64,000 nucleotides of DNA from a virus. Taxonomy: Duplodnaviria > Caudoviricetes. Shown piece after piece: positions 1,476 to 31,345 of this stretch. The stretch's first letter is position 1; the number at the start of each line of letters is the position of its first letter. The notes below the pieces were generated by a model that was not told the DNA's origin, made no database searches, and saw only the letters and a program-made list of their open reading frames with translations. The translations under genes were made by a program, and so were the position numbers. The DNA is taken from positions 1 to 64,000 of IMG/VR virus record IMGVR_UViG_3300035180_001220; one strand, 5' to 3'.

Positions 1476-2084
1476 TTGTCTACTTATGAAATGTGGGCCA
1501 ATATCATGACCATCGTCTGTATCTTCTTGGCTGGACGAAATAACGTTCACACTTGGTGGACTGGTATCGTTGCTAGCATTCTGTTCGGCTATGTGTTCTG
1601 GACTGCTAACCTCTACGCTGACACTACCCTCCAAGTGTTCTTCGTGGTTACGAGCCTCATTGGCTGGTACAACTGGATTAAGAAGGACAATCTTTATGAT
1701 GTTTCATCAGGGCAAGATGAAACAGAGCTTGAAGTAGTAACTGAAACACTGCCTGTGGATTACGCTCCTAAGGAGCAGATGATTAGCTACCTGATTTTGG
1801 CAGTACTTGTTGCTGCAGTGTATGGTTGGATTCTCCACACTTACACAAACGCTTTCGCACCACGGGTTGACTCAATAGTCCTTATGCTCAGCATCGTGGC
1901 CCAACTGTTGTTGATGTCCCGTAAGGTTCAAAACTGGCCAGTTTGGGTGTTGGTTAACATGCTGAGCACACTGCTGTACTTCACTCGTGAACTTTACCTG
2001 ACCTCTGCTCTGTATGCAGCGTTCTTTGTGAATGCTCTGGTCTCCTGGAGAACCTGGGTTAGGCTTGCTAAGGAGCAAGCTTAA
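1476..2084 (+). CDS. pnuC: nicotinamide riboside transporter PnuC
   Basis: Multi-TM protein with LYADxxLQ, GWYNW, DS..LSIVAQLL..RK.QNWPVW motifs. Confidence 0.9.
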   Translation: MSTYEMWANIMTIVCIFLAGRNNVHTWWTGIVASILFGYVFWTANLYADTTLQVFFVVTSLIGWYNWIKKDNLYDVSSGQDETELEVVTETLPVDYAPKEQMISYLILAVLVAAVYGWILHTYTNAFAPRVDSIVLMLSIVAQLLLMSRKVQNWPVWVLVNMLSTLLYFTRELYLTSALYAAFFVNALVSWRTWVRLAKEQA

Positions 2085-2429
2085 TACTGAAAGATCGTTT
2101 GGCCCTTATGGAAAAGGATGCTGTGCCAGCAAAGAGGTATTGTGCGCAAGCTTTACTTCAAGATTGTGCCAGTCCAACCTGACATCAGCAATCCCATCTT
2201 ACGCTTAGCCGGATATGATGACCAGGAGATTGCTTATGAAGCTGCTAAACTTGGTTATGTGAAAAATTGAAATTGTTAAACCGATGATCGCTGTTGGCCA
2301 TAAATAACAACGATTTGAAAAGGTAACTCGAGTAGAAGTCATTTGATGATAGAGTTCAGAAGGTCAGGACATACCTTCTAGACTTGCCCCTGTGCTATAA
2401 ATATATCTCTTTAAACGATCGAGCATATA

Positions 2430-2747
2430 ATGGCTGACATAATCAAAAGACCAGGACACTACGTGTTCAAACTGAAGGAATGGACTGATGATGATTTAGC
2501 TTCTGCTAAATCAACTCTTGAGACTAGCTATCCTCGCATCTTCAAGATGGTAGAAGCTGGATGGGGTAGTGGAGAGCTCCAGAAGAAATTGACAAGCATG
2601 CTGCATGTCGATAATGTAAAGCGTGAAGGATTCCCCGTTGACGTTTGCGAAGCGATCATGATCATCCAAGAATTTCATGAGCAGGAATTTGGCTTCGCAA
2701 ACACCTTCAACCACAGTACGTTCGGTCAACTGCCGGATCAGTGGTAA
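2430..2747 (+). CDS. conserved hypothetical protein (host-like YPRI...WG...REGFP motif)
   Basis: 105-aa ORF after late promoter TATAAATA (~2396). Confidence 0.7.
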   Translation: MADIIKRPGHYVFKLKEWTDDDLASAKSTLETSYPRIFKMVEAGWGSGELQKKLTSMLHVDNVKREGFPVDVCEAIMIIQEFHEQEFGFANTFNHSTFGQLPDQW

Positions 2748-2763
2748 CATTTCTCTGGCTTCC

Positions 2764-2771
2764 TATAAATA
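2764..2771 (+). promoter_or_regulatory. T4-type late promoter driving leader 1
   Basis: TATAAATA about 30 nt before the leader ORF. Confidence 0.65.
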
Positions 2772-2800
2772 AAGTCACTATTAACCCAATCGAGAATCAA

Positions 2801-2890
2801 GTGCAAACTTCCTCCCTAATATCAGTAACCTATCCGTTGACAGCATATGCTGCCGGCATTGCGTTACTCCCTGGGAGCCTTCACCCTTGA
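2801..2890 (+). CDS. leader peptide 1 (29 aa, MQTSSLISVTYPLTAYAAGIALLPGSLHP) of tRNA array 1 attenuator
   Basis: GTG start with GAGA SD; stop overlaps the antiterminator 5' strand; codons match the downstream tRNAs. Confidence 0.7.
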   Translation: MQTSSLISVTYPLTAYAAGIALLPGSLHP

Positions 2891-2947
2891 CTAGAAAGTA
2901 GAAAAACTTTTAAGATCAAGGGACTTCTTAGAAGTCCCTTTTCTTTT
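2884..2947 (+). terminator. attenuator 1: antiterminator (cccttga 2884-2890 / tcaaggg 2916-2922) exclusive with terminator (aagggacttc-tta-gaagtccctt-ttctttt)
   Basis: Two hairpins share aaggg; U-tract follows the second. Confidence 0.8.
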
Positions 2948-3017
2948 GTATAGAGATTTCTGTAAGTGGTTTGTTACAATTGTTGCAAACTATTTTCAAA
3001 AATAGCTAAAATAACTG

Positions 3018-3177
3018 TTTACATTGGTCTGATTGTAGTGTATAATTACTTATCAAACAAAAACGAAGGTGAATAACTGAAGCGGCGGATGCTCTAGATT
3101 TTTGCAGTGATTAACAGCAAATTTAGAAAGAAAGTTTGAAATAGTTGTTTACTTCAGTTTGAAGTATGATATAATTT
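3018..3177 (+). promoter_or_regulatory. two tandem sigma70-like promoters upstream of tRNA array 1
   Basis: tttacattggtctgattgtagtgtataat and tttacttcagtttgaagtatgatataat; boxA-like gtctttaaaa near 3246. Confidence 0.65.
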
Positions 3178-3349
3178 AATTTTACAGCAGCCTGATAGCT
3201 TACAGGTAATAGCCAAAGAACTTCATCGTAGGTTCCTTGTGATGGTCTTTAAAAATTCAGTAGAAACAATTAGCCGTACGGCTAATTGACTCTTGAATCC
3301 CTCGCGTAAGCTGTGGTTCTTTCTTGAGAAAATAAAACGTACGGACTTT

Positions 3350-3424
3350 GGGCACTTAACTCAGCGGTAGAGTTCTTCTTTTACACGGAAGCGGTCAGAG
3401 GTTCGATCCCTCTAGTGCCCACCA
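3350..3424 (+). tRNA. tRNA-Val(TAC)
   Basis: Cloverleaf, loop TT-TAC-AC, CCA end. Confidence 0.9.
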
Positions 3425-3747: not shown

Positions 3748-4407
3748 ATGAAACAGCATTTGATCTATAAAATTACCAACACTCTCAACGGAAGATTTTA
3801 CGTTGGTATGCATACTGGCTTTGAAGATGACAATTACTTTGGTAGTGGTCGTCGAATTAAGGCAGAGATAAAGAAATATGGTAGAGAAAATTTTAAGAAA
3901 GAAATACTTGAAGTTTGCTCTGATAGAAAATCTCTTAAACAAAGAGAAGCAGCAATAGTTAATGAAGAACTTTTGATTGATCCCTTATGTCTTAACCTAA
4001 AGAATGGTGGAGAAGGTGGTGGTAAGTTTAAATCAAAAGAGCATCAGCAAAAATGCACCATTGCTGCAATAGGAACTGGTACTGCAACTCTCAGAAAAAG
4101 ATTACAGGATTCTGCTTATGAAAAACAGTTTAAGCAGAATGTTAGCAATAGTATGAAGGCTTATTATGCTGCAAATCCTCAGATGAAAAGCATAAATCAA
4201 GCGAAGGCAACTGCTGCTTCAAAATCGGTAGCAGTGTCGGAAAAGAGAAAAGAAACATTTGCTAAGATAAAATTCCAGCAAGGGGAAAATAATTCCCAGT
4301 TTGGTGTTAAGCGAATAGGAATAATAAAAGATGGGAAGATCAAAAAAGTTCTTCTTGATCAAGTTCAACTATTTTTAGATGATGGTTGGAAAAGAGGTTT
4401 TAAATAA
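3748..4407 (+). CDS. GIY-YIG (Seg-like) homing endonuclease
   Basis: IYKITN...FYVG..H...YFGSG...ENFKKEILE motif; inserted in the tRNA array. Confidence 0.9.
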   Translation: MKQHLIYKITNTLNGRFYVGMHTGFEDDNYFGSGRRIKAEIKKYGRENFKKEILEVCSDRKSLKQREAAIVNEELLIDPLCLNLKNGGEGGGKFKSKEHQQKCTIAAIGTGTATLRKRLQDSAYEKQFKQNVSNSMKAYYAANPQMKSINQAKATAASKSVAVSEKRKETFAKIKFQQGENNSQFGVKRIGIIKDGKIKKVLLDQVQLFLDDGWKRGFK

Positions 4408-6578: not shown

Positions 6579-6697
6579 GCGGGTATGGTGGAATTGGTAG
6601 ACACACCAGACTTCTACGGAACATCTGCTAACGCGGGTGTTCAAAAAAATTTGGCGGGGGCAACCCCATGCCGGTTCGATTCCGGCTACCCGCACCA
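6579..6697 (+). tRNA. tRNA-Leu(TAA) with 32-nt anticodon insertion (6614-6645)
   Basis: Leu body; removing ctacggaacatctgctaacgcgggtgttcaaa restores ccaga-CTTAAAA-tttgg. Confidence 0.75.
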
Positions 6698-8730: not shown

Positions 8731-8861
8731 GGAGATGTAGTGTAATGGTAGCACGCGAAAAACATCGATCGCATTTTTTAGTTAGTAAAATAACCGGCCA
8801 GCTGATTGGTTATCACCCGTCACGTGCGAAGACCTCGGTTCGATTCCAGGTATCTCCACCA
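8731..8861 (+). ncRNA. tRNA-bodied (circularly permuted) Y-RNA-like molecule A
   Basis: ggagatg/tatctcc-ACCA acceptor plus D and T arms; anticodon arm replaced by the AACCG..GGTTATC module. Confidence 0.65.
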
Positions 8862-11513: not shown

Positions 11514-11604
11514 GGAGTGTAGGCTGGATGGTCAGGCCCTGCAGTTTTAAACCATAGAGCCGCTAATACTGGCTCGCAGGGTTCGACTTCCCGATACTCC
11601 GCCA
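11514..11604 (+). pseudogene. Ser-type tRNA, degenerate anticodon arm (loop reads TTA)
   Basis: ggagtgt/atactcc-GCCA, long V arm, poorly paired anticodon stem. Confidence 0.5.
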
Positions 11605-30923: not shown

Positions 30924-31119
30924 TGTACATTCCTCCAGACCGTGGTATAATTACTCTATCAGCAGATTAAATGCTGTTGATAATCTAAAAGATTTGGAAA
31001 ATATTTCAGCAGACTGTTTACTTTGTCTGAGACTTAGGTTATAATTGCTTTTCAACAAAAATTCTTTTGTTGAAAACAATTTTGCAGGATGTCAGAAATT
31101 TTTTGGCATCCTATAAATA
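30924..31119 (+). promoter_or_regulatory. two sigma70-like promoters and a late promoter upstream of leader 2
   Basis: tgtacatt..N..tataat, tttacttt..N..tataat, TATAAATA at 31112. Confidence 0.65.
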
Positions 31120-31166
31120 AATTCATGCAGCAATGTTGCTGCGACAGTAAAGGAAAAGAGATTATT

Positions 31167-31295
31167 ATGTTTAGCACTTCTTTTAATATGACGAACATGT
31201 TTTGGCAGCAATGTCAAGATGCAGTCGTGCGTATTGAACGCAGTGAGCATGATAAAAGACTTTCAGCCCTTAGTGATGGAGCCGGATTAGCCTAA
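31167..31295 (+). CDS. leader peptide 2 (42 aa, MFSTSFNMTNMFWQQCQDAVVRIERSEHDKRLSALSDGAGLA) of tRNA array 2 attenuator
   Basis: SD-like aagga/gaga; last codons overlap the antiterminator; codons match the array-2 anticodons. Confidence 0.75.
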   Translation: MFSTSFNMTNMFWQQCQDAVVRIERSEHDKRLSALSDGAGLA

Positions 31296-31345
31296 AGGTC
31301 AATCCTACTTAACACACTAAGGGTACTGGAAAGGTACCCTTTTTT
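31267..31345 (+). terminator. attenuator 2: antiterminator (cccttagtg 31267-31275 / cactaaggg 31315-31323) exclusive with terminator (aagggtact-ggaaa-ggtaccctt-ttt)
   Basis: Overlapping hairpins share aaggg; U-tract follows. Confidence 0.8.

What the first reader, a model, noticed from the sequence alone, without database searches (positions are those of the whole stretch)
2764..2947. Leader 1 uses almost every Leu/Ala/Thr/Ile/Gly codon once
Codons: GTG CAA ACT TCC TCC CTA ATA TCA GTA ACC TAT CCG TTG ACA GCA TAT GCT GCC GGC ATT GCG TTA CTC CCT GGG AGC CTT CAC CCT TGA. That is 26 distinct sense codons out of 29. It has five different Leu codons (array 1 has TAG, AAG, TAA, CAA and a CAG pseudogene), all four Ala codons and the rare ATA (array 1 has Ile-TAT). 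26 of 28 post-start residues are array-1 amino acids. The stop lies inside the antiterminator 5' strand. Caveat: two sigma70-like promoters (3018, 3148) lie downstream of this terminator, so it may gate only late or upstream transcription.
Basis: partly seen in the sequence, partly recalled or inferred. Interest (0 to 1): 0.85.

Follow-up and report, generated by a model that had tools for sequence, protein, structure and literature searches.

The report
Mini-gene and terminator before phage tRNAs
Just ahead of a large uncultured phage's first tRNA gene row sits a small, conserved unit (late promoter, 29-codon mini-gene, hairpin, stop signal) that may let transcription run on when ribosomes lag, but its "every codon once" pattern looks like chance.

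Summary
The codon list is correct: GTG 2801 to TGA 2890 has 29 sense codons, 26 of them distinct, with five Leu and four Ala codons. This is not exceptional. 33 of 1926 equal-length open frames in the contig are as diverse. Only 14 of 28 codons are read by array-1 tRNAs (chance, P 0.32). A natural relative has 24 of 29 distinct. "26 of 28 array-1 residues" is really 24 of 28.

The architecture is real. TATAAATA (2764) is a strand-biased late-promoter motif. A strong hairpin (2884-2922, z -5.7) holds the stop codon in its 5' arm and shares 5 nt with the terminator's 5' arm (2918-2940). The terminator keeps its stem in relatives through a compensatory change. Block 2779-2891 differs at only 3 of 113 positions. 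An RNA-library contig joins the terminator end to about 2779.

A second such unit precedes tRNA array 2. Only one of seven array heads in five published phages has this layout.

My best reading (0.4) is a ribosome-position-dependent attenuator of late transcription, not a codon-by-codon sensor. The main rival (0.3) is a small structured late RNA in which the ORF is incidental. Nothing shows translation or switching.

The parts
2764..2771 (+). T4-type late promoter motif TATAAATA; expected start about 2777
   Evidence: The motif occurs 11 times on the + strand and once on the - strand of the 112-kb contig. A second-order Markov model expects about 2.5 and 2.0. Seven of the 11, by my reading of the listing, lie 28-56 nt before a start codon.
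2777..2949 (+). Inferred short late transcript of about 172 nt, from the promoter to the end of the terminator T run
   Evidence: Positions inferred. A 157-nt contig from RNA library X10 joins the relative's terminator end to about 2779. Contigs cannot prove RNA ends.
2789..2794 (+). Weak Shine-Dalgarno-like ATCGAG, 6 nt before GTG
   Evidence: The same hexamer at the same spacing precedes ATG 2430 of the upstream gene. AGGA and GGAG are the enriched motifs before 115 long ORFs; GAGA occurs before 11% against a 5% background.
2801..2890 (+). 29-codon mini-ORF (GTG start, TGA stop)
   Evidence: It is intact in relatives X7 and X10, with 2 synonymous changes and 1 Ile-to-Val change. No predicted protein in the 5.8-billion-protein collection shares words with its 49-codon frame.
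2812..2877 (+). Long imperfect hairpin inside the ORF
   Evidence: MFE -20.2 kcal/mol, z -2.43, matched by 6 of 200 shuffles. All 3 substitutions in the relative fall at unpaired positions, and 2858 A>G adds a pair.
2884..2922 (+). Competitor ('antiterminator') hairpin A. Its 5' arm holds the stop codon. Its 3' arm shares 2918-2922 with the terminator's 5' arm.
   Evidence: -16.3 kcal/mol, z -5.69, matched by 0 of 200 shuffles. The competitor score of -11.3 is reached by 5 of 1000 shuffles of the upstream 70 nt. The outer stem is unchanged in relatives while the apical part carries 5 changes.
2918..2949 (+). Intrinsic terminator: 10-bp stem, 3-nt loop, T run
   Evidence: -14.3 kcal/mol. In X5 and X7, 2926 T>C together with 2932 A>G is compensatory, and the stem is kept at -14.1.
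3018..3046 (+). Sigma70-like early promoter 1, downstream of the terminator
   Evidence: TTTACA-17-TATAAT, 11 of 12 matches. The cassette is repeated elsewhere in the contig.
3148..3175 (+). Sigma70-like early promoter 2
   Evidence: TTTACT-16-TATAAT with TG, 10 of 12 matches.
3350..3424 (+). tRNA-Val (TAC), the first gene of tRNA array 1
   Evidence: ARAGORN; Rfam 63.6 bits.

Best explanation
Positions 2764-2949 form a self-contained late 'leader' unit at the head of tRNA array 1. A T4-type late promoter starts an RNA of about 172 nt. The RNA carries a 29-codon mini-ORF, then hairpin A, then an intrinsic terminator.

Proposed mechanism (inferred, not shown):
- Hairpin A forms first and holds the bottom of the terminator's 5' arm.
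- A ribosome that has reached the last roughly five codons or the stop codon covers A's 5' arm, so the terminator forms cleanly and the short RNA is released.
- A ribosome that lags, or is absent, leaves A in place. This lowers termination and lets some late transcription run through the early-promoter region into the tRNA genes.

On this reading it is a sensor of general translation progress. The near-unique codon set is not a designed feature. At early times the array is served by its own two sigma70-type promoters.
For: Shown here:
- The promoter motif is enriched and strand-biased, and lies 37 nt before the GTG, within the 28-56 nt spacing seen at other starts.
- The start context ATCGAG plus 6 nt is the same as that of the upstream gene.
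- Hairpin A is highly non-random (z -5.69, 0 of 200 shuffles; 5 of 1000). It overlaps the terminator arm and contains the stop codon.
- With the ribosome footprint masked at A-site codons 5 to 23, P(terminator pair) is 0.75-0.83. With it at codon 26 or the stop it is 1.00.
- The A-to-terminator refolding barrier of 3.9-6.9 kcal/mol is in the range of trpL (2.9-6.5) but below most values for hisL, thrL and leuL (5.7-15.6) under the same script.
- In relatives the ORF is intact, A's outer stem is unchanged, and the terminator stem is kept by a compensatory pair.
- Among the 6 perfect-stem terminators of the contig, the two ahead of tRNA arrays have the strongest competitors (-13.6 and -11.3). 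The others range from -8.3 to 0. Ten terminators in 100 kb from five published phages range from -6.2 to 0.
- The second unit (31112-31341) has a good SD, an ATG, 42 codons and a competitor that beats its terminator unless the ribosome sits at codons 35-41.
- 24 of 28 residues are array-1 amino acids, which lies in the 1.5-5% tail.
Against: - The start signals are weak: GTG and only a GAG-type SD, whereas AGGA and GGAG are the enriched motifs.
- There is no run of control codons, and codon-level matching to array-1 anticodons is at chance (14 of 28, P 0.315).
- There is no 1:2-type protector helix, so untranslated RNA folds into A, unlike trpL, hisL, thrL and leuL.
- A shares only 5 nt with the 10-nt terminator arm, the barrier is at the low end, and at equilibrium the terminator still forms (P about 0.8).
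- Two strong promoters lie between the terminator and the first tRNA.
- The block 2779-2891 differs at only 3 of 113 positions, while the neighbouring gene differs at 18-23%. That is more conservation than a peptide needs and points to an RNA-level constraint.
- No gene caller's product matches the frame.
- Six of seven array heads in five published phages lack the layout.
- Nothing shows translation or regulated read-through.
Confidence: 0.4

Rival explanations
1. The unit encodes a small structured late RNA of about 172 nt, either trans-acting or simply stable, that ends at a constitutive terminator. The ORF is incidental. Hairpin A and the long hairpin belong to the RNA's own fold, and its place beside the tRNA array is not regulatory.
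For: - The block 2779-2891 is conserved at the nucleotide level (3 of 113 differences), whereas the last 6 codons of the upstream gene already carry 4 synonymous changes in X5.
- All 3 substitutions fall at unpaired positions.
- GC is 0.48 in the block against 0.23-0.38 in its flanks.
- The layout is that of a typical sRNA: promoter, structured body, A/U-rich hairpin, terminator.
- An RNA-library contig joins the terminator end to about 2779, as expected for a discrete abundant RNA.
- The ORF ignores the phage's codon bias: P(at least 26 distinct) is 0.008 under phage codon usage and 0.048 under uniform usage.
- T4 itself keeps two stable RNAs of unknown role in its tRNA cluster (annotation).
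Against: - No Rfam family matches.
- There is no antisense target in the contig beyond chance: the best is a 14-mer, reached by 16 of 200 shuffles.
- There is no similarity to T4 rnaC or rnaD.
- It does not explain why the stop codon sits in A's arm, why A overlaps the terminator, or why the same layout recurs before array 2.
Confidence: 0.3
2. An ordinary terminator ends the upstream late gene 2430-2747. The TATAAATA at 2764, the ORF and the overlap of hairpin A with the terminator are coincidences.
For: - The terminator lies 171 nt after the gene's stop codon, and the gene has its own TATAAATA at 2396.
- About 2.5 of the 11 + strand motifs are expected by chance.
- 33 of 1926 frames are as codon-diverse.
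- The promoter and terminator scans overall are not above their shuffles (30 found against 27.6; 10 against 8.5).
Against: - Hairpin A has z -5.69, and the competitor score is reached by 5 of 1000 shuffles.
- The intergenic stretch is more conserved than the gene it would merely terminate.
- The twin unit before array 2 is the top-ranked competitor in an unbiased scan of 51 candidates.
Confidence: 0.13
3. It is an RNA-only cis switch. The conserved block 2779-2891 acts as a sensor domain for a ligand, a tRNA or a protein. Its closing helix (2790-2794 with 2886-2890) competes with hairpin A for the segment 2884-2892 and so sets termination without any ribosome.
For: - The conservation pattern resembles a riboswitch: a constant sensor block and a variable apical part of the expression platform.
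- The closing helix appears in the MFE of the block.
Against: - The closing helix has only 5 pairs, one of them G-U, and the block's fold is not strongly non-random (z -1.95, 8 of 200 shuffles).
- No Rfam match.
- No T-box-like bulge appears in the fold of hairpin A (T-box features recalled, not tested).
- With three substitutions there is no covariation to test.
Confidence: 0.1
4. It is a real small late gene for a 29-residue hydrophobic peptide, followed by a normal terminator.
For: - The spacing from the late promoter and the start context match the upstream gene.
- The ORF is intact in relatives, with 2 synonymous changes and 1 Ile-to-Val change.
- The peptide has no charged residue.
Against: - Synonymous sites are almost invariant, unlike the neighbouring gene.
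- Codon usage is unlike that of phage genes.
- It uses a GTG start, and no homologue or called gene exists.
- P(at least 2 of 3 transitions synonymous) is 0.29 by chance.
Confidence: 0.07

Closest known systems
Leader-peptide (ribosome-mediated) transcription attenuators of enterobacterial amino-acid operons: trpL, hisL, thrL, leuL. They were fetched from E. coli K-12 and run through the same scripts.
   Same: - A short ORF lies between a promoter and an intrinsic terminator.
- The distance from stop codon to T run is 50 nt here, against 44-93 nt in the four controls.
- An alternative helix holds part of the terminator's 5' arm.
- The terminator is the equilibrium fold, and any anti-termination must be kinetic.
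   Different: - There is no run of control codons.
- There is no protector (1:2) helix, so untranslated RNA forms the competitor by default.
- The start signals are weak.
- The downstream genes are tRNAs that have their own promoters.
- The promoter is a phage late promoter.
Leader ORFs that sense general ribosome stalling and control a terminator: for example the B. subtilis antibiotic-induced leaders and the mycobacterial whiB7 uORF. I saw only the abstracts listed for PMC6851288, PMC13689557 and PMC10274678. Details of their mechanisms are recalled, not read.
   Same: The logic proposed here is the same: any slowing of the ribosome on a short ORF, rather than hunger for one amino acid, shifts the terminator/antiterminator choice.
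   Different: Those units control resistance or stress genes of cells and respond to drugs. This one would control tRNA genes of a phage, and nothing has been tested.
Attenuator-derived small RNA rnTrpL of Sinorhizobium (abstract listing of PMC6614838)
   Same: A terminated leader transcript that accumulates as a discrete small RNA and may act on its own.
   Different: There is no sequence or structural relation, and no target was found here.
Stable RNAs rnaC and rnaD in the phage T4 tRNA cluster (record annotation)
   Same: Small structured RNAs of unknown role, encoded beside phage tRNA genes.
   Different: - They lie at the distal end of the T4 cluster, inside the tRNA transcript.
- There is no similarity; the best short matches have E of at least 0.22.
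- T4 has no TATAAATA in the 104 nt before its first tRNA.

Membership tests
Leader-peptide transcription attenuator | Promoter-proximal short ORF with usable start signals | tested here: inconclusive
   GTG start 37 nt after TATAAATA. Only a GAG-type SD, though identical to the upstream gene's start context.
Leader-peptide transcription attenuator | Intrinsic terminator between the leader ORF and the regulated genes | tested here: met
   10-bp stem plus T run. A compensatory change keeps the stem in relatives.
Leader-peptide transcription attenuator | Alternative helix that sequesters the terminator's 5' arm | tested here: met
   Hairpin A shares 2918-2922. Before the 3' arm exists, 5-9 of the 10 arm nucleotides are held. 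5 of 1000 shuffles reach its score. The barrier is at the low end of the four E. coli controls.
Leader-peptide transcription attenuator | Ribosome position decides which helix forms | tested here: met
   In silico only. P(terminator pair) is 0.75-0.83 with the A site at codons 5-23, and 1.00 at codon 26 or the stop.
Leader-peptide transcription attenuator | Run of control codons cognate to what the operon supplies | tested here: not met
   No repeated codon runs. 14 of 28 codons are read by array-1 anticodons against a null of 12.0 (P 0.315). Only the amino-acid-level match lies in the 1.5-5% tail.
Leader-peptide transcription attenuator | Protector (1:2) helix that makes termination the default without translation | tested here: not met
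   Free RNA forms hairpin A. In trpL, hisL, thrL and leuL, 0-3 arm nucleotides are held in free RNA; here it is 8 of 10.
Leader-peptide transcription attenuator | Regulated genes depend on read-through, with no promoter of their own in between | tested here: not met
   Two sigma70-like promoters at 3018 and 3148.
Leader-peptide transcription attenuator | The leader is translated and read-through responds to translation | not testable with these tools
   No ribosome or end-mapping data are available. The RNA-library contig shows presence only.
T4-type late promoter | TATAAATA about 6 nt before the start site, used genome-wide | tested here: met
   11 on the + strand against 1 on the - strand, with about 2.5 expected; placed before ORF starts. 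A gp55-type factor was not searched for, and the contig is only 32% complete.
Any Rfam family (release 15) | Covariance-model match at the gathering score | tested here: not met
   There are no hits in 2779-2891. Only sub-threshold hits (E 0.23-0.94) fall on the terminator hairpin.
tRNA, tmRNA or tRNA-like | Cloverleaf found by ARAGORN | tested here: not met
   0 genes in 2700-3000 at a relaxed threshold, tmRNA search included.

The most novel reading that the evidence does not exclude
This phage places both of its tRNA arrays behind leader-ORF attenuators. These read how fast ribosomes move and open late transcription into the tRNA genes when decoding lags, for instance after host tRNA loss. 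This is a control logic that three full-text searches did not find described for tRNA genes. The terminated leader may also persist as an abundant RNA of about 172 nt seen joined head to tail.
Probability: 0.35. Interest if true: 0.8.

Novelty: new variant of a known kind. Interest (0 to 1): 0.5.

Why it matters
tRNA genes are generally thought to be controlled at their promoters. A translation-sensing terminator ahead of phage tRNA arrays would be a new use of attenuation. It would also give a direct, testable link between decoding trouble in the infected cell and the phage's supply of its own tRNAs.

For this locus the evidence is structural and comparative only. The specific codon-by-codon idea does not hold up, so the value lies in the architecture rather than the codon list. 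The architecture appears twice in this contig and once, weakly, in Xanthomonas phage X1.

Tried and rejected
Searches for relatives that found nothing:
- blastn of 2400-3400 against 50,697 phage records.
- The 105-aa upstream protein in IMG/VR and in JGI metagenome contigs.
- The PnuC-like neighbour in IMG/VR.
- Four exact or gapped DNA patterns from the unit in IMG/VR or metagenome contigs.
- The 105-aa protein matches only itself among 5.8 billion proteins.
- The 49-codon frame matches nothing.
- This scan's index holds no look-alike stretch.

So comparative data come only from one read-laying run on 4 of the 13 listed runs. That call did not show 47 of the differences and 9 of the indels. 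The positions of 10 of the 23 differences of the X7 piece are therefore unknown, as are 7 of the 14 differences and the single gap of the X5 contig.

Parts without RNA-library cover (the upstream gene; 2952 to about 2990) are not used as evidence. A contig in an RNA library is not proof of transcription.

Rejected ideas:
- tRNA-like or tmRNA.
- Any Rfam family.
- Similarity to T4 rnaC or rnaD.
- An antisense target in the contig.
- The 49-codon extension from GTG 2741.

My first kinetic argument that hairpin A is too weak was withdrawn. The same script gave trpL a similar barrier.

The L2 codon counts, and the L2 peptide printed, used a frame shifted by one base. correct this.

The substitution pattern is uninformative: P(at least 2 of 3 synonymous) is 0.29, and P(3 of 3 unpaired) is 0.10.

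Survey of seven array heads in KVP40, Aeh1, S-PM2 (2 heads), S-SCSM1 and X1 (2 heads), 2 kb upstream of each:
- Six have no such unit.
- X1's has a competitor reached by 93 of 1000 shuffles, so it is not significant on its own.

Full report
**Where the window lies**

The window is the first 64 kb of a 112,303-base linear IMG/VR virus record that CheckV rates 32% complete. GC is 41%. It carries 35 tRNA genes by ARAGORN. Its proteins are only distantly related to cultured phages, at 26-37% identity for a tail-fibre-like protein and a helicase. The finding lies between a 105-codon gene (2430-2747) and tRNA-Val at 3350, the first gene of array 1.

**The observation**

The codon string is exact. 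GTG 2801 to TGA 2890 gives 29 sense codons, 26 of them distinct, with five Leu codons and all four Ala codons. Three details are wrong or unconfirmed:
- 24, not 26, of the 28 post-start residues have a tRNA in array 1.
- A Leu-TAA tRNA is not found. The tRNA at 11514-11604 has anticodon TTA, which reads UAA.
- ATA is not rare in this phage.

**Is it more than chance?**
- Among 1926 terminal 29-codon stretches of open frames in all six frames of the contig, 33 (1.7%) have at least 26 distinct codons. Two, this one included, combine at least 5 Leu with 4 Ala codon types.
- Given the peptide, phage codon usage would give at least 26 distinct codons with probability 0.008. Uniform usage gives 0.048. 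Much of the "diversity" is therefore simply the absence of the phage's codon bias, which is what a frame that is not an ordinary gene shows.
- Under simple wobble, 14 of 28 codons are read by array-1 anticodons, against a null mean of 12.0 (P 0.315).
- The amino-acid-level match (24 of 28) is reached by 28 of 1926 frames if Arg is left out and by 101 of 1926 if it is counted.
- In a natural variant the count drops to 24 of 29 distinct codons, with four Leu and two Thr types.
- The headline codon pattern is therefore real but not compelling, and it is not maintained.

**The anatomy around the ORF**

*Promoter and start.*
- TATAAATA occurs 11 times on the + strand and once on the - strand, with about 2.5 expected. 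It mostly sits 28-56 nt before start codons, including ATG 2430 and GTG 2801.
- Both of those starts are preceded by ATCGAG plus six bases.

*Hairpins and terminator.*
- The ORF contains a long imperfect hairpin at 2812-2877 (z -2.43).
- Immediately after it comes hairpin A, 2884-2922 (-16.3 kcal/mol, z -5.69, 0 of 200 shuffles).
- A's 5' arm contains the stop codon. Its 3' arm shares 2918-2922 with the 5' arm of the terminator (2918-2940 plus T run).
- The gain from pairing the terminator arm with upstream RNA (-11.3 kcal/mol) is reached by 5 of 1000 dinucleotide shuffles.

*What else was checked.*
- Two strong sigma70-like promoters follow at 3018 and 3148. Their cassette is repeated elsewhere in the contig.
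- No Rfam family, tRNA-like fold or tmRNA fits 2740-3000.

**Relatives**

No relative was found in the phage, IMG/VR or JGI collections. Public runs do hold variants.
- In X7 (DNA) and X10 (RNA library of the same sample), 2779-2891 differs at only three positions: 2830 C>T (synonymous), 2858 A>G (Ile to Val) and 2881 T>C (synonymous).
- At least ten differences lie in 2892-2940, and pieces of the upstream gene differ at 18-23%.
- All three changes in the block fall at unpaired positions of the predicted fold, and one adds a pair.
- Hairpin A keeps its outer stem while its apical part carries five changes (-15.9 against -16.3 kcal/mol).
- The terminator keeps its stem through the compensatory pair 2926 T>C with 2932 A>G.
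- With three substitutions, neither coding (P 0.29) nor structure (P 0.10) can be told from chance.
- Many differences were not displayed by the tool, so counts outside 2779-2891 are lower bounds.

**An unexplained RNA contig**

One 157-nt contig of the RNA library is circularly permuted relative to the window.
- Its loose end equals the relative's version of 2922-2949 plus two letters, joined directly to 2779-2891.
- The DNA contig of the same sample runs straight through 2752-2972.
- The junction therefore links the end of the terminator T run to within about two bases of the start expected from TATAAATA.
- This fits a discrete RNA of about 172 nt seen head to tail, as a circle or through template switching on an abundant RNA. 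A tandem DNA copy in another strain is not excluded, and contigs cannot prove RNA ends.

**Does the structure behave like a switch?**

I ran the same script on the E. coli trpL, hisL, thrL and leuL leaders.
- In those controls the terminator remains the equilibrium fold (P 0.99-1.00) even with a ribosome masked at the control codons. The antiterminator holds 0-9 nucleotides of the terminator's 5' arm. The estimated refolding barrier is 2.9-15.6 kcal/mol.
- Here, A holds 5-9 of the 10 arm nucleotides and the barrier is 3.9-6.9 kcal/mol.
- P(terminator pair) is 0.75-0.83 with the ribosome at codons 5-23, and 1.00 at codon 26 or the stop.
- The unit is thus within the range of real attenuators, at the weak end.
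- It differs in having no protector helix: untranslated RNA folds into A by default.

**A twin unit before array 2**

An unbiased scan of 51 terminator-like sites in the contig ranked first a site I had not looked for, 31319-31341.
- It lies behind TATAAATA at 31112, a good SD, and a 42-codon ORF from ATG 31167.
- Its competitor (arms 31269-31277 and 31314-31322; 0 of 1000 shuffles) beats the terminator unless the ribosome sits at codons 35-41.
- That ORF contains all 14 amino-acid kinds served by array 2, which 15 of 1027 frames do.
- With a strict definition, the contig has six perfect-stem terminators. The two before tRNA arrays score -13.6 and -11.3. The others score -8.3 to 0. Ten terminators in 100 kb from five published phages score -6.2 to 0.

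**Survey of published phages**

I looked 2 kb upstream of seven tRNA array heads in five published phages.
- Six heads have no such unit: KVP40, Aeh1, S-PM2 (2 heads), S-SCSM1 and one head of Xanthomonas phage X1. T4 has none either.
- The main array of X1 has an unannotated 39-codon ORF a few bases after CATAAATA. An upstream copy of the terminator's 3' arm lies near the ORF's end. A terminator follows, then promoter-like sites of the sigma70 type (my reading of the sequence; not scanned), then tRNA-Trp.
- X1's competitor is not significant on its own (93 of 1000 shuffles).
- The layout is therefore not general among T4-like phages.

**Earlier notes and the literature**

Earlier notes of this scan report similar readings in at least eight other genomes. 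I treat them as leads only.

Three full-text searches found no paper that describes attenuation of phage tRNA genes (listings and abstract starts only).

**Verdict**

The unit is real, conserved and probably expressed.
- Most likely (0.4) it is a ribosome-position-dependent attenuator of late transcription at the head of array 1, acting as a general sensor of translation progress.
- Nearly as likely (0.3) it is a small structured late RNA whose ORF is incidental.
- Less likely are a plain terminator with coincidences (0.13), an RNA-only switch (0.1) and a mini-protein gene (0.07).
- The claim in the title, that the leader uses each codon once as a design, is not supported.

Noticed in passing
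window 31112-31341: A second unit lies ahead of tRNA array 2. It comprises TATAAATA, an SD-like AAAGGAAAAGAG, a 42-codon ORF (ATG 31167 to TAA 31295), a 9-bp competitor (31269-31277 with 31314-31322) and a terminator at 31319-31341. In free RNA the competitor beats the terminator (P(terminator pair) 0.13). The ORF holds all 14 amino-acid kinds of array 2, which 15 of 1027 frames do. Here the early promoters lie upstream of the unit.
   Followed up: partly
window 2779-2951 (run X10): An RNA-library contig is circularly permuted: the terminator end is joined to about 2779. The DNA contig of the same sample is collinear. It could be a head-to-tail RNA or a tandem DNA copy in another strain; this is unresolved.
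   Followed up: partly
window 11514-11604: A tRNA with anticodon TTA (reads the UAA stop) and a long variable arm: a possible ochre suppressor carried by the phage.
   Followed up: no
window 6579-6697 and about 8731-8861: tRNA genes with short introns in the anticodon loop: Arg-TCT with 32 nt and Ile-GAT with 38 nt. They were found by Rfam and by ARAGORN in intron mode, but not by the default ARAGORN run.
   Followed up: partly
window 3748-4407: A homing-endonuclease ORF (phrog_314, E 5e-36) lies inside tRNA array 1. This parallels segB inside T4's tRNA cluster.
   Followed up: no
window 3000-3055; contig 47941, 76385, 81636, 82525, 85543: The early-promoter cassette is repeated at several places in the contig at 74-96% identity. 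Many short contigs of runs X5 and X7 align only to it.
   Followed up: no
L026 1648-1841 (Xanthomonas phage X1, record 135547-135740): An unannotated 39-codon ORF lies just after CATAAATA. It is followed by a hairpin and a terminator, then sigma70-like promoter sites (my reading of the sequence; not scanned), about 320 nt before the first tRNA of the phage's main array. The layout matches the one studied here, but the competitor is weak (93 of 1000 shuffles).
   Followed up: partly
window 1476-2084: A PnuC-like nicotinamide mononucleotide transporter ORF (phrog_1880, E 5e-31) lies upstream of the unit.
   Followed up: no
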